From NCBI GenBank assembly GCA_017629895.1, contig JAGBWF010000100.1, positions 1 through 39,363 on the forward strand: DNA of 39,363 nucleotides, written 5' to 3'. Made by a program: the position numbers and the translations under genes. The notes beneath the pieces are model-generated. The model was not told where the DNA came from, did no database searches, and saw only the letters and a list, made by a program, of their open reading frames with translations. This document shows, piece by piece, positions 14,995-36,079 of the stretch (position 1 is the first letter of the stretch; every line of letters starts with the position of its first letter). This stretch comes from Clostridia bacterium. Lineage in GTDB: Bacteria > Bacillota > Clostridia > Oscillospirales > CAG-382.

Positions 14995-15048
14995 AAAAAC
15001 GGCTTTGCAGGACTGCCCGAGGGGCGTCCCGCAAAACCGTTGATTTTT
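14995..15048. terminator. strong bidirectional intrinsic terminator
   Basis: 15-bp stem ACGGCTTTGCAGGAC (14999-15013) / GTCCCGCAAAACCGT (15026-15040), with 2 G-U pairs as RNA. Flanked by AAAAA upstream and TGATTTTT downstream. It begins 5 nt past the protease stop. Confidence 0.8.
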
Positions 15049-15052
15049 ATTA

Positions 15053-18000
15053 TCAGAACTGCGAAAGCGTTTTTTCGATATCGTCGCCCGTCATATAGCT
15101 GTTTTGCATAAGCCTTTCGACAAGCGCGTCTATCGCCGCCTTATTGTCTGTGATAATCGCGATGACGTTCTTCATTTCCTCGGAAAGAAGAGCGTTCACT
15201 CTTGCTCTTACCTCGGCGGAAAGCTCTCCGTTGAGTGCCGCATCCTGACCGACTACCGAAAGTCCGAACGGATCGTCCATACCGTAGGAGCATATCATCG
15301 CCTGAGCGACGCGGGTTGCGTTTTCAAGGTCGCCGCTCGCACCTGTCGTTATGCCGTCCTCGGCTCCATAGTATACGATTTCAGCCGCTCTGCCCGCAAG
15401 AGAAACGCGGATGCGGTTGATAAGATCCTTCTTGGTATAGGTGCCCTTGCTTTCGTGGTCGCCGTGCTGCATATAGCCGCCGTGGTTGCCGCGTGCGACG
15501 ATCGTGAGATAGGAGGGAGTTTCTCCGCCGTGGTAGCAGAGGAAGGCGTGGCCTGCCTCGTGGCGCGCGGTGCGTTCGAGGTCTGCGGGGTCCCACTGCC
15601 TCTTTTCGCCGCTGTTGAAGGATTCGAAGGCTTCCTCGAAGATTTCGTCGGTAACCTTATCGAGCCCCTTGATAAGCGTGGTACGGAGTGCGAGCTCAAG
15701 CACGTTTTCGAGAAGTGCAAGGCTCATACCGACCGAGCGGAGAGCGATGCTGTCGATAGTTTCCTCGCTCAGCTCAAAACGGGCGTTTTTCGAGGTCTTC
15801 ATCTGCAGGTAACGCTTTCTGTCGGCTCTTCCGGGAAGACCGATGTAAAGCTTGCGGTCGAAGCGGCGCATCAACGCACCGTCAAGGCTCTTGGGCGAGC
15901 CGGGGGTTACGTCGAAGTTTGTTGCCGCGAGCACGAATACCGGGCGCGCGGAATCCTTTTTAAAGCCGTCCATTTCGGTGAGCAGAGCTGTGAGAACAGC
16001 CTCACTGCCTCCGCCGTAGCCGGTGCGCTCCTTGGCGATAGCGTCGATTTCATCGATAAAGATTATCGTGGGCGCGTATTTTCTTGCGGTGCGGAAGAGC
16101 TTGTGGATCTTTTCGCTTCCGTCGCCCTGACCGTTGGACATAAGCTTGTTGCCCTCGACGTTTATAAAGGTCGAGTTGGACGCGCTTGCCATAGCCTTTG
16201 CGAGCAAGGTCTTACCGGTACCGGGAGGGCCGTAGAGCAGAACGCCCTTGGGTGCGCTTACGCCGGTGCCGAGATACTTTTTCGGGTCTTTAAGGTAATC
16301 TACGAAATATTTAAGCTCGCTCTGTGCCTCGGGTGCGCCGATAACGTCGTCGAAGCTTACGTTCGGCTTCGACATATTGCCGAGAATCTCGTCGCTGTCC
16401 TCGGGATCGACCGCAACGGCAAGCTTGAAGTCGAACAGGCTGATTTCGGCACATTTTCCGCCCTCGGTGAGCTTCTGTGCGGTTTCATAGGTAACGAGCT
16501 TGTTTGCGCGTGCGAGCTCGTTCATGCTCTGCTGCTGGTGGAGCTTGATGCAAAGCGATTCGACCTCCTCGGCAAATACGCCGTTTTTATCCGAGCCGTC
16601 AACGATTCCCTTAACGCCCTTGCGCATAAAGGAAACGATTTCCTCGCGGTCGAAATCGCGCTCTGCGGTTTCGATGAAGTATATGGGCGTTCCGTTGTGG
16701 TTTTCGTGTGCGAAATAGAAGAAATCGCGTGCTTCGGAAGCCTCGTCCTCGATATTCAGGTAATCGGCGTCATGCTTTTTGCCGTAGTTGATATCGATAA
16801 TAATTGCCTTGATATCGTGGTTTTTCAGGCAAGCCTTCGCCTGCTCTGCGTTTTCGCAGTGGCGGAAGATACATTTATCGGTCTTGCCCGTATATTTATC
16901 GGCAACCTCCTTGGAGGAGAAGAGAAGAAGCTCGGGAGTGTTCTTCGGGCGGAAGAGCTTGCAGATGTCCTCGTCGTTTTCGGGGAGTGCGATGCCGATC
17001 GAGATCTTCTCGATATCCTTTATTTCGGTATCGGTAAGCTTCGAGCTCGTGAGTCTCAAAAGCTCGTAAAGCTCGTTGTCGAAAAAGCTCTTTGCGCGGC
17101 CTGTAATAGTTCTCGCATCTGCGTTACCGCCCTCGGAGAAGAGGATTGCGGTATAAACCGAATCGTCGATTTCGGTCTTGATGCCGAACTTTTTGCCGAA
17201 AACGTCGCAGTGCTTGGTTATCTGCGCCTTTGCGATATCGTGAAGGATATAGGCGAACATGTGGTTGAACATAACGACGTTGCCCTGTGCGAAGCGCGAG
17301 CAGAGAGCCGCGGGGAAATAGGGCTCGTTTGTCGCGGGGTTGATATCCTTCTGAATGGCTTTAAGAATCACCTTGCGGGAAACGGCAGAGAAATCGCCGT
17401 TTTCGGTATCGTCATAGTATTGCTTGCCCGCGTTGGTGGTGAAGATGATATACGCATCCTTGAAAGATGCGACCTTGCTCGTGTTTGCATCGACGAGGGT
17501 ACCTGCGTCGAGCATCTGATACAAAAGGAAAAGAACTACGGAGTGCGCCTTTTCGATTTCGTCGAGAAGAATAACGCATCGCGGGTTATTAATAATATAC
17601 TCGGTCAGCACACCGCTTTTGCTGTCCTTATATACGGGGTCGGAGCCGATAAGGCGAATATGAGCCTCTTTATCTGCAAATTCCGACATATCGAAGCGCT
17701 TATAGGGAAGCTTGGTTTCCTTTGCGAAGGATTCTGCAAGAAGGGTTTTACCGACGCCGGGAGGGCCTGCAAAAAGGAAGGTTCCGCGCGGCTTGGTGCG
17801 CTCGGTTGCTGTCATTGCCAGAAGCTCGGATTGGAAATAACCCGAGGTTGTAACGTTGATCGCGTTTGCCTGACCGAGAATTTTCGAGGAGAGGACCTCC
17901 TGAATACGCTTTACCTCGGCTGTGAGCTTTTCGATTGCGCTCTTCGGGAGGGTGTTGCCGTCGGACGAAGCCGCCGCGCCCGATTGAATTACGGGCTCGG

Positions 18001-18538
18001 TATCGGACTCACGGGATTGCGAGGGAGTCATCGGTCTGTCGGTGGGCTCGCTGTTCTGCGGCATGGGCGCGCCGTCGCTTCTCGGAACGATAGGTCTGTC
18101 CTCGGGAGAGGAATCGGTTTGCTGATTTTCCTTTAAGCAGCGTGAAAGCAAAAGCTTGAGCTTTGCGCTCGGCTTTGTAAGTATGCAATAAACGAGCACG
18201 GCGGGGGTGAGTGCGGTGAAGCCGTTTTCGTTGGAATATTGAATAGCATAGGATATGGAGTTGCGCATAAACACGTCCTCCATAAGCTCGTTTCTGTCGT
18301 TAAGGACGTCTTCGAGCATAACCTCTTTCAGCTTTTTGAGGTCGATATTGCTGTTGACAAGCGATTTTGCAACGTTGTCAAATTCTTCGGTATTGCGGAT
18401 TGTCAGACTGCCGTCGAGCACGCTGACAAGCGTAACGAAAAGTCGCTCGGCTGTAAAGGGAGGGCTCTTCTTTTCGCCTATCTTCTTCGAAAGCTCGATA
18501 AGCTCCTGCATCAACGGAGTGTTCTGAAGATCGGTCAT
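15053..18538 (-). CDS. soluble multi-domain AAA+ metalloprotease: Clp_N - Hsp100-D2-type AAA - unassigned insert - FtsH-type AAA - peptidase M41
   Basis: 1161 aa from ATG 18538 (SD AAAGGAG 8 nt upstream). Two Walker A boxes, GPPGVGKT (17744-17767) and GPPGTGKT (16208-16231). Walker B 'LLDEIE' and 'FIDEID'. Zinc motif HEAGH (15548-15562) followed by 'TTGASGDLENAT'. No hydrophobic TM helix in the trimmed protein. Confidence 0.85.
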   Translation of the reverse strand: MTDLQNTPLMQELIELSKKIGEKKSPPFTAERLFVTLVSVLDGSLTIRNTEEFDNVAKSLVNSNIDLKKLKEVMLEDVLNDRNELMEDVFMRNSISYAIQYSNENGFTALTPAVLVYCILTKPSAKLKLLLSRCLKENQQTDSSPEDRPIVPRSDGAPMPQNSEPTDRPMTPSQSRESDTEPVIQSGAAASSDGNTLPKSAIEKLTAEVKRIQEVLSSKILGQANAINVTTSGYFQSELLAMTATERTKPRGTFLFAGPPGVGKTLLAESFAKETKLPYKRFDMSEFADKEAHIRLIGSDPVYKDSKSGVLTEYIINNPRCVILLDEIEKAHSVVLFLLYQMLDAGTLVDANTSKVASFKDAYIIFTTNAGKQYYDDTENGDFSAVSRKVILKAIQKDINPATNEPYFPAALCSRFAQGNVVMFNHMFAYILHDIAKAQITKHCDVFGKKFGIKTEIDDSVYTAILFSEGGNADARTITGRAKSFFDNELYELLRLTSSKLTDTEIKDIEKISIGIALPENDEDICKLFRPKNTPELLLFSSKEVADKYTGKTDKCIFRHCENAEQAKACLKNHDIKAIIIDINYGKKHDADYLNIEDEASEARDFFYFAHENHNGTPIYFIETAERDFDREEIVSFMRKGVKGIVDGSDKNGVFAEEVESLCIKLHQQQSMNELARANKLVTYETAQKLTEGGKCAEISLFDFKLAVAVDPEDSDEILGNMSKPNVSFDDVIGAPEAQSELKYFVDYLKDPKKYLGTGVSAPKGVLLYGPPGTGKTLLAKAMASASNSTFINVEGNKLMSNGQGDGSEKIHKLFRTARKYAPTIIFIDEIDAIAKERTGYGGGSEAVLTALLTEMDGFKKDSARPVFVLAATNFDVTPGSPKSLDGALMRRFDRKLYIGLPGRADRKRYLQMKTSKNARFELSEETIDSIALRSVGMSLALLENVLELALRTTLIKGLDKVTDEIFEEAFESFNSGEKRQWDPADLERTARHEAGHAFLCYHGGETPSYLTIVARGNHGGYMQHGDHESKGTYTKKDLINRIRVSLAGRAAEIVYYGAEDGITTGASGDLENATRVAQAMICSYGMDDPFGLSVVGQDAALNGELSAEVRARVNALLSEEMKNVIAIITDNKAAIDALVERLMQNSYMTGDDIEKTLSQF
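15056..15595 (-). other. domain: peptidase M41 (FtsH-type zinc protease, residues ~982-1161)
   Basis: 'ERTARHEAGHAF' (HExxH), 'LAGRAAEIVYYG', 'ITTGASGDLENATRVAQAMICSYGM'. Confidence 0.8.
15623..16357 (-). other. domain: classical FtsH-type AAA module (residues ~728-972)
   Basis: 'GVLLYGPPGTGKTLLAKA', 'PTIIFIDEIDAIA', 'LLTEMDGF', 'VLAATN', 'ALMRRFDRKLYIGLP'. The Walker A to Walker B spacing is identical (47 aa, gapless) to E. coli FtsH. Confidence 0.8.
16595..16936 (-). other. domain: possible receiver-like (flavodoxin-fold) insert (residues ~535-648)
   Basis: The alternating beta/alpha pattern 'ELLLFSS...', 'IKAIIIDINYG', 'PIYFIETAE', 'KGVKGIVDG' resembles CheY-like beta1/beta3/beta4/beta5, but the beta1 acidic pair is absent. 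Pattern-level guess only. Confidence 0.3.
17045..17929 (-). other. domain: Hsp100/ClpB D2-type AAA+ module with D2-small-like tail (residues ~204-498)
   Basis: 'GTFLFAGPPGVGKTLLAESFA', 'DMSEFADKEAHIRLIGSDPVY...GVLTE', 'CVILLDEIEKAH', 'LYQMLDAGTLVD' and 'IIFTTNAG'. By eye this is near-colinear with E. coli ClpB D2 ('[28 protein letters not shown].LTE', 'ILLDEVEKAH', 'TSNLG'). Confidence 0.75.
18143..18538 (-). other. domain: double Clp_N-type repeat (protease residues ~1-132)
   Basis: Two about 60-aa repeats, each ending in the Clp_N-like pattern x-T-x-E/A-x-L-hydrophobic-hydrophobic-x-hydrophobic-L: 'FTAERLFVTLVSVL' and 'LTPAVLVYCILT'. Confidence 0.55.
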
Positions 18539-18574
18539 ATTATCGCTCCTTTGCATAAAATAACTATCCTCTTG

Positions 18575-18603
18575 ATTATACAACCAAAAAGCGCTTCTGT
18601 CAA
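18575..18603 (-). promoter_or_regulatory. sigma-A promoter of the AAA+ protease gene (perfect consensus)
   Basis: Minus strand reads TTGACA (18603-18598), 17 nt, TATAAT (18580-18575). The predicted leader is about 30 nt. Confidence 0.65.
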
Positions 18604-18617
18604 CAAATTTCGACCGC

Positions 18618-18646
18618 TTGACAACAAACCGAGTATGTTTTATAAT
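18618..18646 (+). promoter_or_regulatory. sigma-A promoter of the HAD hydrolase gene (perfect consensus)
   Basis: TTGACA (18618-18623), 17 nt, TATAAT (18641-18646). It is back-to-back with the protease promoter, with the two -35 boxes 14 bp apart. Confidence 0.65.
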
Positions 18647-18665
18647 AAAAACAGGGGTGATAAAA

Positions 18666-19286
18666 ATGATAAAGCAATACACAACTCTCATTCTTGATAT
18701 GTACGGCGTCATTCTTAACGAGCCAAAGGGCAGATTGCTCGATTACTCGCGCGATAATCTTTCGGCAGAGGAATACCGCCGTATCGAAGAGCTTATACGC
18801 AAGGAAAGTCTTTTCGACAAGGCGGGTGCAGGCGAAATAGATGCGCGTGAGTTTATGAATGTGCTCGGCTATTCCGATTGGGAATATCACTCCAAGCGTT
18901 ATATAGATAATTATCTTACTCTCGACAGCGGATTTATCGAATTTGCGGAAAAGGTAAAGGATAAATATACCCTCGTTCTGCTTTCGAACGATATTGCGGA
19001 GTGGAGCGAATATATATGTGGAAAATTCGGCTTGAACAAATATTTTGCTCATAAAACGGTAAGCGCTTCGGTGAAATGCCGCAAGCCCGAGCTTAAAATA
19101 TACGATCTTACTCTCGAGGCTATCGGAAAATCGCCTTACGAGTGCATTTTTGTGGATAACAACGTCAAAAACCTTCATTCCGCCGAGGAGGTCGGCATCG
19201 CGCCGATACTTTTCGACCGCGAAAACGAGCATTACGACGGTATGACGGTTTACAGCTTTAAGGAGCTTTTGGGTATAATCGGTTAA
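18666..19286 (+). CDS. HAD-superfamily hydrolase (subfamily IA-like)
   Basis: 206 aa from ATG 18666 (SD GGGGTGA). Motif I 'LILDMYGVI' (DxY variant), motif II 'LLSND', motif IV 'FVDNNVKN'. Confidence 0.75.
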   Translation: MIKQYTTLILDMYGVILNEPKGRLLDYSRDNLSAEEYRRIEELIRKESLFDKAGAGEIDAREFMNVLGYSDWEYHSKRYIDNYLTLDSGFIEFAEKVKDKYTLVLLSNDIAEWSEYICGKFGLNKYFAHKTVSASVKCRKPELKIYDLTLEAIGKSPYECIFVDNNVKNLHSAEEVGIAPILFDRENEHYDGMTVYSFKELLGIIG

Positions 19287-24904: not shown

Positions 24905-25968
24905 TATTGCTCTTCCTCCTCTTCGTCGATATCGTCGGGATCGCCGTCGAGCATATCCTGCTCGGCGAGCGTTTCTTCATCGTAATCTCCGATATCCTCC
25001 AATTCCTCGGATTCTTCGGAATCGTCGGATACGTCGTTTTCGGTGTCGAAAACGCTTTGATCGAGCGCATCCTCCTCGTTGCTTGTTGCGATTTTAACCG
25101 TTGCATAAGCAGAGGTGTATTCCTCCATTTCGCCCCTTTCGGTTCTGTGGCGGCTATAAAGCACGAGCTCGCCGATTATCGCCGCGATAACGCAGACGAT
25201 ACCCACGAATACCGAGAATTTGAGGTTGCCGACGATATAAAGGCTGTCGGCGCGGAGGGTTTCGATATAAGCTCTGCCGAGACCGTACCAGCCGAGGTAT
25301 GCGAAGAAAATTTCGCCGTTGAATTTCTTTTTGCGATAGAGGATGAAGAGTATTATCGCAAGTCCGAGAATATTCCAGAGCGATTCATAGATAAAGGTCG
25401 GGTGTACGCAGTTTACACCGACGGGATTTTTCTTGCCGTCGATAACGTAATAATCGAGAACCATTCTCCAGGGGAGCTTATCTACGCCCTCGGACCAGCC
25501 GTATGCCTCGGCGTTAACAAAGTTGCCCCATCTGCCGATAGCCTGACCGAGCATAACCGCGGGTGCAAGTGCATCGAGCATGGAAAGCGAGTTGAGCTTT
25601 TTGATCTTATTGTGGATAAGCACGGCGACAAGACCGAAAATTATCGCGCCGTAGATAGCGATACCGCCTTGGCGGATGTTTATAATATTAAGGAAGCCCG
25701 TGCCCTTAAAACGCTCCCATTCGGTTGCGACGTAAACGAAGCGCGCGCCGATTATGCCGACGGGCATAACGAGCAGGGTAACGTTATAGATAGAATCGGG
25801 GTCGATTCCTTCCTTTTTCACAGCGTAGCGGTAAAAAAGCAAAAACGCAAGAAGTATACCTGTCGTGATAATTACACCGTACCACTTGATATCGATTCCG
25901 AAAATCGAGAATGCGGTTTCATTTACGGTGAAGTCGAGTCCTAATCCGGGAAATTGGATTCTGTTCAT
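24904..25968 (-). CDS. lgt: prolipoprotein diacylglyceryl transferase with about 80-aa polyacidic C-terminal tail
   Basis: 354 aa. 'IKWYGVIITTGILLAF', 'GARFVYV', 'GGIAIYGAIIFG', 'GQAIGRWGNFVNAEAYG', 'HPTFIYESLWN' are Lgt signatures. The tail runs 'EEDALDQSVF...DIDEEEEEQ'. Confidence 0.85.
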   Translation of the reverse strand: MNRIQFPGLGLDFTVNETAFSIFGIDIKWYGVIITTGILLAFLLFYRYAVKKEGIDPDSIYNVTLLVMPVGIIGARFVYVATEWERFKGTGFLNIINIRQGGIAIYGAIIFGLVAVLIHNKIKKLNSLSMLDALAPAVMLGQAIGRWGNFVNAEAYGWSEGVDKLPWRMVLDYYVIDGKKNPVGVNCVHPTFIYESLWNILGLAIILFILYRKKKFNGEIFFAYLGWYGLGRAYIETLRADSLYIVGNLKFSVFVGIVCVIAAIIGELVLYSRHRTERGEMEEYTSAYATVKIATSNEEDALDQSVFDTENDVSDDSEESEELEDIGDYDEETLAEQDMLDGDPDDIDEEEEEQ

Positions 25969-27248
25969 AGATCTTTTCCTTTCTGTATTATGCTTATCGC
26001 GGAATTTTTTGTATCGATCGAATCGAGAGCCGATTTTATATCCTCGCTCGTAATCGAGCGGAGAGCCTCGATACAGTCGTATTCGTCGTATTCAAGTCTT
26101 GCGCTGTCGGACATCGCGACGGTTATATCCTCGCCCGAATCGAACAGAGTGAGGCTGACGGCATAGGCGGATTTTTTCTCGCGGAGGATCTGCTCCTCGG
26201 TGAAAAAATTGCTTTTGCGGTATTCAATTTCATCGAAGGCTGCTTGCATAACCCTTTCGTATTCGCTTCCGCTGCCCGAAATTATAATATGCGCGCTTTG
26301 ACGCGATTGGTTATAGCCTGCATAAAAACGCTCGTTTATAAGTCCGTTTTCGTAGCTACGGCAGTAAAAATCGCTCGCTCTGCCGAAAAGCAAAGACATC
26401 AGAAGCCGCATCGACACGTCTCTTTTATAAGAGGCAAGGTTGTTTTTTGGCGAGGGTGCACATTTTATTCCGATGCAGTAAAGCTCGCTTGCGACCTGTG
26501 CCGATTCGGAAATTCTTTTTTGGTTTACACCCCTCGGCTCCTCGCGGAAGACGGTCTTGGGGCGCGAGCCGCTTTTTTGCGAGAAATATTTTTCGACAGC
26601 CTGCTTTATCGCTTCGGGGTCGGCGTTGCCGCAAACACAAAGCGAAAGATTTTCGGGAACGTAGAAATCGTTATAAGCGCGTGCAAGCGTTTCCTTCGTT
26701 ATTTCCGAAATCGTTTCGACCGTGCCCGAAACGGCGAAGCGGGTGGGGTGATTAAAATAAAGCGCCTTGCTCAGATTCCGCGCGACAGTCGAGGACGGCA
26801 TGTCGTCGTACATCTTGATTTCGCGCGAGATAATCATTTTCTCCTTTTTGACAGACGCTTTTGTGAAATGAACGCTCGATACCGATTTCAGAAGAATATC
26901 GAGGTTTTCGTAGAAATTATCCGTGCAGGAGAAATAATAGCAGGTATTTTCGAACGACGTGAACGCGTTTGCGTTGCCGCCGAATTTATCGAATTCGAGA
27001 AAAGAATCGCTTCCGTCCTCGCTTTCGAACATTTTGTGCTCGAGAAAGTGCGCCGTGCCCGCAGGGAGAGAAAAAAGCTCGCCGTTCTTTTCGTATTCGA
27101 GGTCGGCACCGCCGAAATTACAGCATATCATCGCGTAGACCGCAGAAAGCTGCTTCGGCACAACGGTTATTCTGAATCCGTTTTCGAGCGTGGTATGGTA
27201 ATATTTTTCCTTTAAGCTCTTGCTTTCCTTCAAAGAGAAGCTATTCAT
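25965..27248 (-). CDS. M16-family zinc peptidase (active-site HxxEH present)
   Basis: 427 aa. Inverted zinc motif 'HFLEHKMF' (HxxEH). ATGA overlap with lgt and an 8-nt overlap with the upstream M16 gene. Confidence 0.8.
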   Translation of the reverse strand: MNSFSLKESKSLKEKYYHTTLENGFRITVVPKQLSAVYAMICCNFGGADLEYEKNGELFSLPAGTAHFLEHKMFESEDGSDSFLEFDKFGGNANAFTSFENTCYYFSCTDNFYENLDILLKSVSSVHFTKASVKKEKMIISREIKMYDDMPSSTVARNLSKALYFNHPTRFAVSGTVETISEITKETLARAYNDFYVPENLSLCVCGNADPEAIKQAVEKYFSQKSGSRPKTVFREEPRGVNQKRISESAQVASELYCIGIKCAPSPKNNLASYKRDVSMRLLMSLLFGRASDFYCRSYENGLINERFYAGYNQSRQSAHIIISGSGSEYERVMQAAFDEIEYRKSNFFTEEQILREKKSAYAVSLTLFDSGEDITVAMSDSARLEYDEYDCIEALRSITSEDIKSALDSIDTKNSAISIIQKGKDL

Positions 27249-28515
27249 CGCACACCTCCGCAGAAAGAATATATTCGAGCTCGGGCTTTACCGTTTGTGC
27301 GAGTGCGATAACCTCGTCGCGCGTAACGTTGGTTACAAGCTCTATGCTTTCCTCGATGGTTGCCGAATCCTCACTCAAAATCTGTCCGAGCAGATATCCG
27401 CTTATCGAATTAAGCGTGTTTTCGGCACTGCGCAGAGAGCGGATTATCGAATTTTTTGCGTTTATAAGGTCGGAGTCCGAAAAATTCCCGTTTTTCATCT
27501 CGGAAACCTCGCGGTATATCGCCTTTATCGCCTGCTCCTCACACCCCGGCTCAAGCCCGCAGGAAACGAAGATGACGTTTTTTCTGCCCGCCGGATACGA
27601 AGAGCAATAATAGCAAAGCCCCTCCTTTTCGCGCACGTTCATAAAAAGCTTGCTTGCGGGGGAACCGCCGAATATCTCGTCGTAAACGGTGAGAATTGCA
27701 CGCTTTTTCGCGCTGTCGGGCATTATCGTCGTAAAGCCGAGTATAAGAACGCTCTGCTCCATTTCCATTACCTCGTGGACACGGAGGATTTCGTCTCTCG
27801 CGATATGAAGAACGGAATCGGGCAGCTCGTTTTTGCGCGGGGTGAAGGGAAGGTGCGTCTGCACACATTCCTCGATATATTCGAAATCCGCTTCGCCCGC
27901 ATAGGTTATAAATACGGGGGCGTTTTCAAGTATTTCTTTATAAAAACCGTATAGCTGTCTTCCGTCGAGTGCTCTGACGCGCTCGGTTTCGCCGCCGGCA
28001 TCGACCGCAAAGGGCTCGTTTTCACACATTATCTGCCTTGCGCGGAGCATAGCATAGGAGGGCTTATTCTCGATAAGCGATTCTATTTCGTCGATAAGAC
28101 AAAGCTTTTCGGTTTCGACGTTTGCTTCGGTGAAGGCGCCGTTTTCGATATGCGGATTAAAAATCGCATCGCCCAAAAGCTCGGTGGCGCGATAAAGCAC
28201 CCTTTCGCCATCGAAGGCAAAGGAATCGGCAATCGTGTCCATTTCGAGCTTGACAAGCAAAAGCTCGCCTCTGCGCTGAACGAAGGCATCGAGGCCGAGT
28301 GCATAGAGCTCGTCCTTTATTATCGAAAGCGATTGCATCGTTTTATAGCTGCCCGTGGAAAGCGAGAGCAGGTTTGTGAGCAGAGAATAGCCCGAAGCGG
28401 TCTCACGCGTGAGCGGGACCGCAAAGGAAACCGACATTGAAGCCGATTTGAATTTATCGGTTTTGCAGGCGGCAAGACAGACGCCCGGTTTAAGCTGTTT
28501 TATGCGAATATCCAT
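27241..28515 (-). CDS. M16-family peptidase homologue lacking HxxEH (probable non-catalytic partner)
   Basis: 424 aa. Same length class and position as the YmfF/YmfH-type pairs of Firmicutes. No HxxEH is visible in the N-terminal 100 aa. Confidence 0.7.
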   Translation of the reverse strand: MDIRIKQLKPGVCLAACKTDKFKSASMSVSFAVPLTRETASGYSLLTNLLSLSTGSYKTMQSLSIIKDELYALGLDAFVQRRGELLLVKLEMDTIADSFAFDGERVLYRATELLGDAIFNPHIENGAFTEANVETEKLCLIDEIESLIENKPSYAMLRARQIMCENEPFAVDAGGETERVRALDGRQLYGFYKEILENAPVFITYAGEADFEYIEECVQTHLPFTPRKNELPDSVLHIARDEILRVHEVMEMEQSVLILGFTTIMPDSAKKRAILTVYDEIFGGSPASKLFMNVREKEGLCYYCSSYPAGRKNVIFVSCGLEPGCEEQAIKAIYREVSEMKNGNFSDSDLINAKNSIIRSLRSAENTLNSISGYLLGQILSEDSATIEESIELVTNVTRDEVIALAQTVKPELEYILSAEVCDE

Positions 28516-34861: not shown

Positions 34862-36079
34862 TCAGGCACCTCTTATAATATCGCCGCTTTTTGCGTTTTC
34901 AAGCTCAAGATAAAATTCCATCTTTGCGTGGGGGGTGGATTCGATGGGATTCATTTCGGCATCGTACATCTTTCCGATTATAAAATCCTCACCGAAGGTA
35001 CCGGGGCTTAAAAGATTTGCCCTTTCGCCGACGCTCATTTTATTGCGCTGAACGCATTTGGCAAGCCGTTTTTCGCTATCGTATTCGGTAACCGTGGCTA
35101 AAAACGGACGATCTGCGATATATTCGTTTTCGTTTACTACGTTTGCATCCTCCGAGGGTGAGGAATAGAAGTATCCCGTGCCGTATTCGCGGTGGCTGAC
35201 TCTTTCGGTATCGCTCAGGCAACGTGCATCGAATGGCGAGCCCGAAAAATAATCGTCGAGCGCGATCTTGTATGCGTTGGTGATCGCGGCGGTATAATAT
35301 GCGCTCTTCATTCTGCCCTCGATTTTAAGCGAGTCTATGCCCGCATCGACAAGATCGCTTATATGCTCGATCATTCGCATATCGCGCGATGAAAATACGT
35401 AGGTGCCGTCGCCGTATTGCTCGGCATACGCCGTTTCACCGTGCTTTTCCTCGCGGAGAAAATACTTCCACCTGCAAGGCTGTGCACAAGCACCGCCGTT
35501 GGCGTTTCTGCCCGTATAATAGTTCGACATAAGGCATCTGCCCGAATAGGAAATGCACATTGCACCGTGGATAAAGCACTCGATTTCCATATCTGACGGA
35601 ATTTCTGCTCTGAGACGCTTTATTTCATCGAGCGAAAGCTCGCGTGCGAGCACGACGCGCTTTACACCGTATCTGCCCCAGAATTTCACTGCGGCGGAGT
35701 TGACCGTAGATGCCTGCGTCGAGAGATGAAGCTCGGCGTTGGGGATTTCTTCTTTTATTATATCCATAACGCCCGGATCGCTGATGATGAATGCATCGGG
35801 TGTTATTTTCGCAAGCTCGCGGGCATATTCGCGCAGGGGCGCAAGCTCGCTGTCGCGCGGCATGGTGTTGAGCGTGAGATAAAGCCTTGAATTATGCGCG
35901 TGTGCATAATCAAGTCCCTCTTTAAGCTCGGAAAGAGTAAGGTTGCCTGCAGAGGCTCTCATACCGAATCGGTCGAGCGCACAGTAAACGGCATCCGCGC
36001 CGTAGTTTATTGCATATTTAAGCTTTTCAAGATTACCCGCGGGCGATAAAAGCTCGGGGCGTTTTCGGTTATTGTTCAT
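34862..36079 (-). CDS. peptidase U32 family protein
   Basis: 405 aa. 'ELLSPAGNLEKLKYAINYGADAVY', 'ELHLSTQAS', 'ECFIHGAMCISYSGRCLMSNY'. It is downstream of mltG, matching the B. subtilis yrrL...yrrNO neighbourhood. Confidence 0.85.
   Translation of the reverse strand: MNNNRKRPELLSPAGNLEKLKYAINYGADAVYCALDRFGMRASAGNLTLSELKEGLDYAHAHNSRLYLTLNTMPRDSELAPLREYARELAKITPDAFIISDPGVMDIIKEEIPNAELHLSTQASTVNSAAVKFWGRYGVKRVVLARELSLDEIKRLRAEIPSDMEIECFIHGAMCISYSGRCLMSNYYTGRNANGGACAQPCRWKYFLREEKHGETAYAEQYGDGTYVFSSRDMRMIEHISDLVDAGIDSLKIEGRMKSAYYTAAITNAYKIALDDYFSGSPFDARCLSDTERVSHREYGTGYFYSSPSEDANVVNENEYIADRPFLATVTEYDSEKRLAKCVQRNKMSVGERANLLSPGTFGEDFIIGKMYDAEMNPIESTPHAKMEFYLELENAKSGDIIRGA

What the first reader, a model, noticed from the sequence alone, without database searches (positions are those of the whole stretch)
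15053..18538. Anchor-less, two-tier AAA+ protease: Clp_N + Hsp100-D2 AAA + unassigned insert + FtsH AAA + M41 in one 1161-aa chain
One uninterrupted 1161-codon frame joins modules that normally belong to different AAA+ machines. It has ATG 18538 with SD AAAGGAG 8 nt upstream, its own perfect TTGACA-17-TATAAT promoter and a 15-bp-stem terminator, so it looks monocistronic. The modules are: (i) residues ~1-132, two Clp_N-type repeats ('FTAERLFVTLVSVL', 'LTPAVLVYCILT'). (ii) A Pro/Ser/Asp-rich linker. (iii) Residues ~204-498, an Hsp100/ClpB D2-type ATPase ('FLFAGPPGVGKT', 'DMSEFADKEAHIRLIGSDPVY', 'VILLDEIEKAH', 'IIFTTNAG') plus a D2-small-like tail. (iv) About 230 residues with no family I recognise. 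(v) Residues ~728-972, a classical FtsH-type AAA ('LLYGPPGTGKTLLAKA', 'IIFIDEIDAI', 'LTEMDGF'). (vi) Residues ~982-1161, an M41 zinc protease ('HEAGHAF', 'TTGASGDLENATRVAQAMICSYGM'). Canonical FtsH has two N-terminal TM helices and a single AAA ring. Here no hydrophobic helix is visible in the trimmed protein. The prediction is a soluble protease with a Clp-like ring stacked on an FtsH-like ring, a built-in peptidase chamber and a Clp_N substrate/adaptor domain. I know of no characterised protein with this architecture, but I cannot query databases.
Basis: partly seen in the sequence, partly recalled or inferred. Interest (0 to 1): 0.8.

Follow-up and report, generated by a model that had tools for sequence, protein, structure and literature searches.

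The report
Soluble two-ring FtsH-Clp fusion protease
This gene encodes a real, membrane-free protein that joins a Clp-type unfolding motor, a signal-receiver-like domain and an FtsH-type motor with its zinc protease in one chain; it belongs to a large, unstudied family from uncultured gut Clostridia.

Summary
ORF 15053-18538(-) encodes 1161 aa with significant AAA_2 (249-399), AAA (766-900) and Peptidase_M41 (986-1156) hits, its own 12/12 promoter and a strong terminator. It has no membrane helix. Homolog N-termini confirm the start codon.

New here:
- The N-domain is Clp_N-like by fold only (TM 0.6-0.69); Pfam misses it.
- The "unassigned insert" is a CheY-type receiver fold. It keeps the phospho-acceptor Asp582, lacks the metal-binding acidic pair and the Lys, and has an invariant LNxED..S..RD loop.
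- The architecture is not unique. There are at least 120 full-length 90%-identity clusters, 339 clusters at 50% identity and at least 97 species genomes, nearly all gut or rumen Clostridia MAGs. None is named beyond "AAA family ATPase", and no paper was found.
- All ATPase and zinc motifs are conserved. The window's subclade alone has lost the aromatic pore loop of the FtsH-type ring (YVG to GQG).
- In 53 of 78 related loci the gene sits beside CARF-nuclease, RyR-domain or YbjN-like genes, and TIR genes lie near 16 of 80. The window has none of these and lies in housekeeping chromosome.

Verdict: a new variant of AAA+ protease. Ring stacking and proteolysis remain inferred.

The parts
18575..18603 (-). 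Sigma-70-type promoter TTGACA-17-TATAAT (12/12)
   Evidence: sequence
18546..18552 (-). Shine-Dalgarno AAAGGAG, 7 nt before the ATG
   Evidence: read directly
15053..18538 (-). CDS of 1161 aa plus stop; the start is confirmed by homolog N-termini
18140..18538 (-). Residues 1-133: helical double-repeat N-domain with a Clp_N-like fold (not a Pfam Clp_N member); the most variable module of the family
   Evidence: AF2 pLDDT 91; Foldseek top hits are ClpB/ClpA/ClpV/Hsp104/ClpC N-domains, TM 0.6-0.69; weak HMM hit to ClpA-N, E 0.08; no Pfam hit
17924..18139 (-). Residues 134-205: Pro/Ser/Asp/Glu-rich flexible linker, variable in length across the family
   Evidence: gapped columns; dN/dS 0.42-0.63 against 0.08-0.18 elsewhere
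17045..17923 (-). Residues 206-498: ring 1, an Hsp100 D2-type (HCLR-clade) AAA+ module. Walker A K264, pore-loop Tyr303, Walker B D326/E327, sensor-1 N369, G381-D-F383 at the ClpP-docking-loop position, Arg finger R415, sensor-2 R476
   Evidence: Pfam AAA_2 1.2e-35; ClpA D2 1.1e-44; alignment to ClpA/ClpE D2; motif conservation
16934..17044 (-). Residues 499-535: conserved connector (strand plus helix) between the ring-1 lid and the receiver-like domain
16499..16933 (-). Residues 536-680: receiver-like (beta-alpha)5 pseudo-receiver. Asp582 sits at the phospho-acceptor position (117/121); there is no acidic pair after beta1 and no Lys after beta5; invariant loop L594-N595-x-E597-D598..S601..R604-D605; long alpha5
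   Evidence: AF2; 61 Foldseek hits at E<=1e-3, all 50 listed being receiver domains or response regulators, TMt 0.6-0.76 for the isolated receiver-domain entries; residue census; weak HMM hits to receivers
16358..16498 (-). Residues 681-727: conserved beta-hairpin and linker (ETAQ...LFDF...SKPNVxF) leading into ring 2; low model confidence when modelled in isolation
15614..16357 (-). Residues 728-975: ring 2, a classic-clade FtsH-type AAA module. Walker A K776, Walker B D829/E830, sensor-1 N874, Arg fingers R891/R892. Pore loop 1 is degenerate here (G803-Q804-G805; the family consensus is Y-V-G)
   Evidence: Pfam AAA 4.4e-50; FtsH_fam 4.5e-97; PDB FtsH 4ww0 at 4.9e-73 in a single stretch; pore-loop census
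15056..15613 (-). Residues 976-1161: M41 zinc metallopeptidase with H993-E994-x-x-H997 and the third ligand D1070
   Evidence: Pfam Peptidase_M41 4.7e-31, covering 7-190 of 191 positions; HEAGH and GASGD are conserved in the family
14998..15041 (-). Intrinsic terminator hairpin followed by UUUUU
   Evidence: dG -34.9 kcal/mol, z -6.86

Best explanation
The gene encodes a cytosolic, self-contained ATP-dependent zinc metalloprotease of a previously undescribed family. Its modules run in this order: Clp_N-like N-domain, flexible linker, Hsp100-D2-type AAA+ ring (ring 1), receiver-like pseudo-receiver, FtsH-type AAA ring (ring 2), M41 peptidase.

Proposed mechanism (inferred from the families involved, not shown). 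The M41 and AAA modules assemble into a hexamer, as in FtsH. The rapidly diverging N-domain, on its flexible tether, selects substrates or adaptors. Ring 1 grips and threads the polypeptide with Tyr303. The chain passes ring 2 into the M41 chamber, where the HEAGH/Asp1070 zinc site cleaves it.

The receiver-like domain sits between the rings. It keeps Asp582 but lacks the Mg2+-binding acidic pair and the Lys, so it most likely acts as a phosphorylation-independent coupling or regulatory module. The invariant LNxED..S..RD loop would serve as a contact or ligand site.

In the window's own subclade ring 2 keeps every ATPase motif but has non-aromatic pore loops (GQG). That resembles the D1 ring of p97. 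Ring 2 would therefore act as an ATP-dependent conduit, gate or assembly platform, and ring 1 would do the pulling.

The window copy is a stand-alone, constitutively promoted chromosomal gene. Most other family members are embedded in RyR-domain, CARF-nuclease and YbjN-like gene clusters, some with TIR genes nearby.
For: Shown: domain hits. All Walker A/B, sensor, Arg-finger and HExxH/Asp motifs are conserved in 121 sequences. Tyr303 aligns with the ClpA/ClpE D2 pore Tyr. FtsH structures align in one stretch over AAA plus M41. There is no TM segment and the start is conserved. The N-domain has a Clp_N fold. The insert has a receiver fold, with the active-site census. Every domain is under purifying selection, dN/dS 0.08-0.18, including ring 2 and M41 in the pore-loop-degenerate clade. 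The D2-REC-AAA-M41 core is constant and the N-termini vary across 150 representatives. Promoter and terminator are confirmed. Inferred: hexamer formation, ring stacking, direction of threading, and division of labour between the rings. These rest on established knowledge of FtsH, ClpA/ClpB and p97; the alignment puts G803-Q804 at the p97 D1 'L-A' / D2 'W-F' positions.
Against: In FtsH the pore-1 aromatic residue is needed for protein degradation (my recollection of the FtsH mutagenesis literature, not checked here), so its loss here could mean that substrates are not fed through ring 2 at all. A roughly 230-residue receiver and linker layer between the rings has no precedent in stacked AAA+ machines and might prevent coaxial stacking. 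The ring-1 pore loop is Y-K-D, not the canonical Y-V-G. The physiological substrate is unknown.
Confidence: 0.55

Rival explanations
1. The family is a component (effector, regulator or reset factor) of a nucleotide-signalling immune or conflict system. The window gene would be an orphaned or domesticated copy of that component. The protease would cleave or degrade a partner in response to a signal that the receiver-like domain or partner proteins sense. Candidate partners are the TM-Rossmann-RyR protein, the YbjN-like pair and the CARF nuclease.
For: In 53 of 78 evaluable loci at least one of four recurrent families lies within three genes, nearly always co-directional, and the commonest neighbour is a median of 34 nt away. 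The families are a CARF+PD-(D/E)xK nuclease (PADLOC 4.6e-30), a stand-alone RyR domain (6.5e-37), a TM+TrkA_N-like+RyR protein and a YbjN-like pair. TIR-kinase or TIR-TPR genes lie within 7 kb in 16 of the 80 related loci. Some family members carry an N-terminal Ser/Thr kinase. A phage RyR-domain protein binds TIR-made gcADPR and cADPR with nanomolar affinity (bioRxiv 10.64898/2026.06.04.730250), so a TIR + RyR + CARF neighbourhood is coherent as signalling immunity. The variable N-terminus on a constant core is typical of conflict systems.
Against: The window and its clade (L001-L005) have none of these partners within 39 kb, even at E<=1, and sit in syntenic housekeeping chromosome. The PADLOC hits to the protein itself (IetA, DolB) are generic AAA similarity. 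No background control for defence-gene density was computed. No phage-challenge data exist.
Confidence: 0.25
2. It is an unfoldase or disaggregase rather than a processive protease. Ring 1 remodels substrates, while the FtsH-M41 part serves mainly as a hexamerisation scaffold or a limited, site-specific protease, because ring 2 cannot translocate.
For: The pore-1 aromatic of ring 2 is lost in this clade. Ring 1 is most like ClpA/ClpB/ClpV D2.
Against: HEAGH and Asp1070 are intact and M41 has dN/dS about 0.11 in this clade. Most of the family has a canonical Y/F-V-G pore loop in ring 2. The ring-2 ATPase motifs are retained.
Confidence: 0.15
3. It is an artefact: a chimeric assembly or frameshift fusion of two genes, or a membrane-anchored FtsH whose true start is the upstream ATG at 18712.
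For: The longer 1219-aa frame adds a hydrophobic stretch, MRVVYCFIIFITPVFIIKH.
Against: More than 120 independent full-length homologs are colinear with no gaps at the junctions. Homolog N-termini start at the position of ATG 18538. The extension overlaps the 12/12 promoter and the divergent HAD gene. Purifying selection acts on all domains.
Confidence: 0.02

Closest known systems
FtsH (AAA + M41 membrane protease; Yme1 and m-AAA in mitochondria)
   Same: A classic-clade AAA module is fused to an M41 peptidase with HExxH and an Asp third ligand. The protein aligns in one stretch with solved FtsH cytosolic regions (4ww0, 2ce7) over about 430 residues.
   Different: It has no TM helices or periplasmic domain. 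About 727 extra N-terminal residues carry a second AAA+ ring of a different clade and a receiver-like domain. It scores 326 bits against the NCBIfam FtsH cut-off of 600. The pore-1 aromatic is lost in this clade.
Class I Hsp100/Clp unfoldases (ClpA, ClpC, ClpE, ClpB, ClpV)
   Same: It has a Clp_N-fold N-domain on a linker and a D2-type AAA_2 module with a pore-loop Tyr, sensor-2 GAR-like motif and Arg finger. It is a two-tier AAA+ design.
   Different: The D1 ring and M-domain are absent. The order of clades is inverted (HCLR ring first, classic ring second). The peptidase is fused in cis instead of being a separate ClpP. 'GDF' replaces the VGF/IGL docking tripeptide at the aligned loop.
LonA
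   Same: It is a single-chain, soluble AAA+ protease with an N-terminal substrate-binding region and an HCLR-clade ATPase.
   Different: Lon has one ring and a Ser-Lys S16 peptidase. Here there are two rings and a zinc M41 peptidase. The only Lon similarity is to the ATPase.
Receiver-regulated AAA+ systems (NtrC/NtrC1 REC-AAA+ activators; the RssB and CpdR adaptors of ClpXP)
   Same: A CheY-fold domain is coupled to an AAA+ machine. NtrC1 (1ny5) and RssB (8twd) appear among the fold hits.
   Different: Here the receiver-like domain lies between two AAA+ modules of a protease. It lacks the acidic pair and the Lys needed for canonical phosphorylation. No cognate kinase is encoded nearby.
p97/Cdc48 (D1 ring with non-aromatic pore loops)
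   Same: It is a tandem AAA+ protein in which one ring has non-aromatic pore-1 loops. G803-Q804 aligns with the p97 D1 L-A positions.
   Different: p97 has two classic-clade rings and no fused peptidase.
'FtsH ternary systems' of Kaur et al. 2020 (PMC7159879) and the IetA/IetS defence pair
   Same: These are FtsH-type or classic AAA ATPases found in conflict-system neighbourhoods. PADLOC IetA models hit residues 656-977.
   Different: The ternary-system component has two FtsH-type AAA domains (the first inactive) with MoxR-vWA partners. IetA has one ring and a separate serine protease. Neither has AAA_2 + REC + M41.

Membership tests
FtsH (M41 AAA protease) | Classic-clade AAA module with Walker A/B and a second region of homology | tested here: met
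   Pfam AAA 4.4e-50; K776, D829/E830, N874 and R891/R892 are conserved
FtsH (M41 AAA protease) | C-terminal M41 peptidase with HExxH and an Asp third zinc ligand | tested here: met
   Peptidase_M41 4.7e-31; HEAGH 993-997 and D1070 are conserved
FtsH (M41 AAA protease) | Two N-terminal transmembrane helices flanking a periplasmic domain | tested here: not met
   The maximum 19-residue hydropathy is 1.54, in the Walker B strand. The conserved soluble N-terminus starts at M1. No dedicated TM predictor was available.
FtsH (M41 AAA protease) | NCBIfam equivalog score (TIGR01241 cut-off 600 bits) | tested here: not met
   326 bits, covering only residues 721-1154
FtsH (M41 AAA protease) | Aromatic-hydrophobic-Gly pore-1 loop | tested here: not met
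   The window has G803-Q804-G805. An aromatic Y, F or W sits at position 803 in about 110 of the 121 aligned sequences, most often as Y/F-V-G. The position is confirmed by alignment to Cdc48.
Hsp100/Clp class I unfoldases | Clp_N repeat domain (Pfam PF02861) | tested here: not met
   No Pfam hit at E<=10 on residues 1-210; a profile against the PDB gives only E 0.08 to ClpA-N
Hsp100/Clp class I unfoldases | Clp N-domain fold | tested here: met
   AF2 pLDDT 91; 21 of the top 22 Foldseek hits are Clp/Hsp100 N-domains, TM 0.5-0.69 over 131-156 columns
Hsp100/Clp class I unfoldases | D1 AAA ring (and an M-domain in ClpB/ClpC) preceding D2 | tested here: not met
   Only a 72-residue low-complexity linker lies between the N-domain and the AAA_2 module
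Hsp100/Clp class I unfoldases | D2-type AAA_2 module with a pore Tyr, sensor-2 and Arg finger | tested here: met
   AAA_2 1.2e-35; ClpA D2 1.1e-44; Y303, R415 and R476
Hsp100/Clp class I unfoldases | ClpB_D2-small lid (PF10431) | tested here: inconclusive
   There is no Pfam hit, but the ClpA and ClpV D2 alignments run on to residues ~441-467 and the sensor-2 motif is present
Hsp100/Clp class I unfoldases | ClpP-docking [LIV]-G-[FL] loop (ClpA/C/E/X only) | tested here: inconclusive
   A conserved G381-D-F383 lies at the aligned loop (conservation). It is not the canonical tripeptide, and binding cannot be tested here.
Response-regulator receiver (CheY-like) | (beta-alpha)5 receiver fold | tested here: met
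   AF2 secondary-structure order with pLDDT 80-90; 61 Foldseek hits at E<=1e-3, and all 50 listed are receiver domains or response regulators
Response-regulator receiver (CheY-like) | Pfam Response_reg sequence membership | tested here: not met
   No hit at E<=10; a profile against the PDB gives only E 0.17-1.1
Response-regulator receiver (CheY-like) | Phospho-acceptor Asp at the end of beta3 | tested here: met
   D582 in 117 of 121 sequences; it aligns to the 'vllDl' Asp of receivers
Response-regulator receiver (CheY-like) | Acidic pair after beta1 (Mg2+ site), and a Lys after beta5 | tested here: not met
   Positions 541/542 are A/S and S; no conserved Lys at 647-650; T624 in only 57 of 121
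LonA | S16 Ser-Lys peptidase domain | tested here: not met
   The Lon model matches only the ATPase (43 bits against a cut-off of 608), and no Lon_C appears in Pfam
IetAS defence system | IetA ATPase paired with an IetS serine protease gene | tested here: not met
   The PADLOC IetA hit (1.5e-43) covers only ring 2. The immediate neighbours are ABC, HAD and GDSL genes with no protease.

The most novel reading that the evidence does not exclude
This family is a new class of soluble, three-to-four-tier AAA+ metalloprotease (Hsp100-D2 ring, pseudo-receiver layer, FtsH ring, M41 chamber). In most members it would act as the regulated proteolytic arm of an undescribed signalling immune system built from RyR-domain sensors, a CARF nuclease and, in some loci, TIR proteins. 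The receiver-like domain or its invariant LNxED loop would couple a small-molecule or partner signal to substrate threading. The window's clade would be a derived, stand-alone form that has handed translocation entirely to ring 1.
Probability: 0.25. Interest if true: 0.85.

Novelty: new variant of a known kind. Interest (0 to 1): 0.65.

Why it matters
AAA+ proteases are textbook machines with a small set of known designs: ClpXP, ClpAP, Lon, FtsH, HslUV and the proteasome. This family adds a design that has not been described. It has two rings of different clades in the reverse order to Hsp100 proteins, a fused zinc peptidase, no membrane anchor and a receiver-fold domain between the motors.

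It offers natural experiments on how tandem rings share work, because most members have canonical ring-2 pore loops and one clade has lost them. It also bears on how a signalling-type domain can gate an unfoldase. The family is abundant in uncultured gut and rumen Clostridia. In most loci it is linked to RyR-domain, CARF-nuclease and YbjN-like genes, with TIR genes nearby in a fifth of loci, so it may also open a route into an unstudied immune or stress pathway in that microbiota.

Tried and rejected
- Pfam on the isolated N-terminal and insert segments gave nothing. Profile-against-PDB searches gave only sub-significant hints, so structure prediction was needed.
- NCBIfam has no family-specific model; every hit falls below its cut-off.
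- PADLOC on the protein gave only generic AAA matches (IetA, DolB, TRIP13). I did not treat these as membership.
- The longer 1219-aa reading with a hydrophobic N-terminus was rejected.
- A chimeric assembly was rejected.
- I looked by eye for CtsR- or CIRCE-like heat-shock operators in the 5' region and saw no convincing match. No scan was run.
- I considered a phospho-arginine-binding ClpC-type N-domain. The family motif T-A-E-R is out of register with ClpC's T-E-H, so I make no claim.
- Six literature searches found no description of the architecture. The 'FtsH ternary systems' of PMC7159879 are a different thing.
- The terminator was missed by the simple scan, because its stem-loop does not fit the scan's criteria. 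It was confirmed by folding.

Full report
**1. The observation**

The frame is real. The ORF listing gives one ORF at 15053..18712 (-) of 1219 aa. From the ATG at 18538 the product is 1161 aa.

In an alignment of the query with 120 homologs, all 40 N-termini that were listed begin at the position of this ATG, with the pattern 'M..(I/M)KN..LL..LIE.AK..G......LTAERF'. Homolog lengths are 1122-1250 aa.

The 58-codon upstream extension contains a hydrophobic stretch. It overlaps the promoter and the start of the divergent HAD-hydrolase gene, so it is not coding.

The promoter TTGACA-17-TATAAT at 18603..18575 scores 12/12. AAAGGAG precedes the ATG by 7 nt. The post-stop hairpin at 14998-15041 plus a U-run folds at -34.9 kcal/mol (z = -6.9). 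The downstream ABC gene has its own 11/12 promoter. The gene therefore looks monocistronic.

**2.

Pfam confirms three of the named modules: AAA_2 at 249-399 (1.2e-35), AAA at 766-900 (4.4e-50) and Peptidase_M41 at 986-1156 (4.7e-31). NCBIfam places residues 721-1154 on FtsH (4.5e-97, 326 bits, below the 600-bit equivalog cut-off) and residues 206-464 on the D2 half of ClpA (1.1e-44). Solved FtsH cytosolic regions align in one stretch over AAA plus M41.

Pfam Clp_N and ClpB_D2-small are not detected, even on isolated segments at E<=10.

No 19-residue window exceeds a hydropathy of 1.54, and that maximum is the Walker B strand of ring 1. The protein is anchor-less.

**3. The N-domain**

A 15-sequence alignment (A1) gave an AlphaFold2 model with pLDDT 91 and seven helices. 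In Foldseek against the PDB, 21 of the top 22 hits are N-domains of ClpB, ClpA, ClpV, Hsp104, ClpD or ClpC, with TM 0.5-0.69 over 131-156 columns. The E-values are only 0.03-1. A profile against the PDB gave ClpA-N at E 0.08.

So the Clp_N call is right for the fold but not for sequence-family membership.

This domain is the least conserved part of the protein (37% mean column identity). Among 150 family representatives my N-domain HMM recognises it in only about 32.

**4. The 'unassigned insert'**

The model of residues 490-730 (A2) shows a beta1-alpha1-beta2-alpha2-beta3-alpha3-beta4-alpha4-beta5-alpha5 order at pLDDT 80-90. A long helix and a low-confidence beta-hairpin follow it.

Foldseek gave 61 PDB hits at E<=1e-3. 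All 50 listed are response-regulator receiver domains or proteins that contain one, with TMt about 0.6-0.76 for the isolated receiver-domain entries. NtrC1 and RssB are among them.

The residue census in 121 sequences shows:
- Asp582 at the phospho-acceptor position in 117 of 121.
- Ala/Ser-Ser in place of the acidic pair after beta1.
- Thr624 in only 57 of 121.
- No conserved Lys after beta5.
- A long beta3-alpha3 loop with invariant L594, N595, E597, D598 and R604 (121/121) and S601 (118/121).

This is a pseudo-receiver. Canonical His-Asp phosphotransfer is unlikely, and the invariant loop is a family signature of unknown role.

**5. Catalytic motifs**

In ring 1, Walker A (K264), Walker B (D326/E327), sensor-1 (N369), the Arg finger (R415) and sensor-2 (R476) are conserved. 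Alignment to ClpA and ClpE D2 puts Tyr303 on their pore-loop Tyr. It also puts the conserved G381-D-F383 at the position of the ClpE VGF / ClpA IGL ClpP-docking loop.

In ring 2, Walker A (K776), Walker B (D829/E830), N874 and R891/R892 are conserved. So are HEAGH (993-997) and D1070 in the M41 domain.

The exception is pore loop 1 of ring 2. The family consensus is KK-Y-V-G-E-G, with an aromatic residue in about 110 of 121 sequences. The window, P0001-P0006 and L002-L005 instead have S-N-G-Q-G-D, SGGSGD, SNAQGD or GSPGKS. Alignment to Cdc48/NSF confirms that G803-Q804 occupy the aromatic-hydrophobic positions, which are W-F in the D2 ring and L-A in the D1 ring.

dN/dS against L002 and L003 is 0.13-0.15 overall. 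It is 0.08-0.18 in every domain, including ring 2 and M41, and 0.42-0.63 in the linker. dS is about 1, so these values are approximate. The degenerate-pore clade is therefore still under constraint.

**6. How common is it?**

- The search for homologous proteins returned at least 120 full-length clusters at 90% identity (49-98% identical to the query). All carry PF07724 + PF00004 + PF01434, and the only names given are 'AAA family ATPase'.
- An exhaustive profile search with the family-specific insert found 339 clusters at 50% identity (240 at E<=1e-10), mostly 1100-1250 aa.
- A pattern scan of one genome per species found 97 genomes. All 80 listed are uncultured MAGs or metagenome bins of gut or rumen Clostridia, including Faecousia, Acutalibacteraceae, Oscillospiraceae, Ruminococcus and a few Lachnospiraceae.
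- The D2-REC-AAA-M41 core is constant. The N-terminus is Clp_N-like, unrecognised, absent or, in 1850-2100-aa forms, a Ser/Thr kinase plus about 650-900 unassigned residues.
- Six full-text searches found no description of this architecture. The 'FtsH ternary systems' of PMC7159879 differ.

**7. Genomic context**

The window is housekeeping chromosome. It carries iPGM, exonuclease VII, Lgt, M16 and U32 peptidases, YceG, SufBD-like, ABC, HAD and GDSL genes, and it is syntenic with L002 and L003.

Elsewhere in the family, 53 of 78 evaluable loci have at least one of four recurrent families within three genes. These neighbours are nearly all co-directional:
- A TM + TrkA_N-like + RyR protein in 34 loci, a median of 34 nt away.
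- A pair of YbjN-like proteins in 20 loci.
- A CARF + PD-(D/E)xK nuclease in 18 loci (PADLOC 4.6e-30).
- A stand-alone RyR domain in 18 loci (Pfam 6.5e-37).

TIR-kinase or TIR-TPR genes lie within 7 kb in 16 of the 80 related loci. A 2026 preprint shows that a phage RyR-domain protein binds TIR-made gcADPR and cADPR. That makes this neighbourhood coherent as nucleotide-signalling immunity.

None of these families occurs in the 39-kb window, even at E<=1. The partner-less loci include the whole pore-loop-degenerate clade. That clade counts as a single evolutionary event, so the correlation between pore-loop loss and context loss is only suggestive. I did not compute a background frequency for defence genes.

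**8. Interpretation**

The best-supported reading is a soluble, self-compartmentalising, two-ring AAA+ zinc metalloprotease:
- The N-domain selects substrates or adaptors.
- Ring 1 (Tyr303) does the threading.
- A pseudo-receiver layer couples or regulates the two rings.
- Ring 2 and M41 form the degradation chamber.

In this clade ring 2 probably acts as an ATP-dependent conduit or gate rather than a puller, by analogy with p97 D1. The modules, motifs, folds, selection and distribution are shown. Hexamer formation, stacking, direction of threading and proteolysis are inferred from what is established for FtsH, ClpA/B and p97.

The main rivals are:
- The family is a component of an immune or conflict system, and the window gene is an orphan copy.
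- The protein is an unfoldase with only limited proteolysis.
- An artefact, which is effectively excluded.

**9. Verdict**

This is a real and well-supported feature. It is a new variant of a known kind of machine, belonging to a large but unnamed and uncharacterised family. It is refined here by the receiver-fold insert, the pore-loop loss and the family's gene context.

Noticed in passing
window 15104-18136 (+): A 1010-aa stop-free ORF with a TTG start runs antisense across almost the whole gene. I take it to be a shadow frame of the real CDS; no evidence of coding was sought.
   Followed up: no
window 18575-18646: Two perfect 12/12 sigma-70 promoters stand back to back, with their -35 boxes 14 bp apart. 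One drives the protease gene (-) and the other the divergent HAD-hydrolase gene (+). The two TTGACA boxes form an inverted repeat that could be a shared operator.
   Followed up: partly
loci L006-L080 (e.g. L041 4-12 kb, L065, L037, L015): A recurrent co-directional cluster surrounds family members: two YbjN-like genes, a CARF+PD-(D/E)xK nuclease, TM-TrkA_N-like-RyR proteins (often one on each side) and a stand-alone RyR-domain protein. Variable extras include TIR-TPR, TIR-kinase, a transglutaminase-like protein and a HExxH peptidase with a 153-aa partner. It looks like an undescribed signalling or immune module.
   Followed up: partly
P0214, P0221 (and other 1500-2100-aa representatives): Long family members carry an N-terminal Ser/Thr protein kinase and about 650-900 unassigned residues ahead of the D2-REC-AAA-M41 core. 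A few representatives have two D2-type or two FtsH-type modules.
   Followed up: partly
window 17390-17398 (-), residues 381-383: A conserved Gly-Asp-Phe lies exactly where ClpE (VGF) and ClpA (IGL) have their ClpP-docking loop. It may dock ring 1 onto the next tier in cis.
   Followed up: partly
L012/L023 (Lapin-033 bin3) and L040/L073 (RGIG3008): Two MAGs each show two matching loci. L012/L023 look like distinct copies (1159 vs 1194 aa, different pore-loop sequences). L040/L073 may be one locus assembled twice (same 1179-aa length, same pore loop and same neighbours; not compared).
   Followed up: no
window 18539-18712 (-): The in-frame upstream extension encodes a TM-like stretch (MRVVYCFIIFITPVFIIKH). 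It lies in AT-rich intergenic DNA that holds both promoters, and it could mislead gene callers into predicting a membrane anchor.
   Followed up: yes
window 25968-28515 (-) and 34865-36079 (-): The window also encodes a tandem pair of M16 (insulinase-type) peptidase homologs and a U32 peptidase. These are ordinary housekeeping proteases and are not linked to the finding.
   Followed up: no
L028, L036, L039, L044, L046, L048, L051, L055, L076: Some family members that do have partner genes nearby also carry non-aromatic residues (T, H, I or L) at the ring-2 pore position (e.g. KGTVGEG, KSHVGEG, KSLQGQG). Weakening of this loop is therefore not confined to the window's clade.
   Followed up: partly
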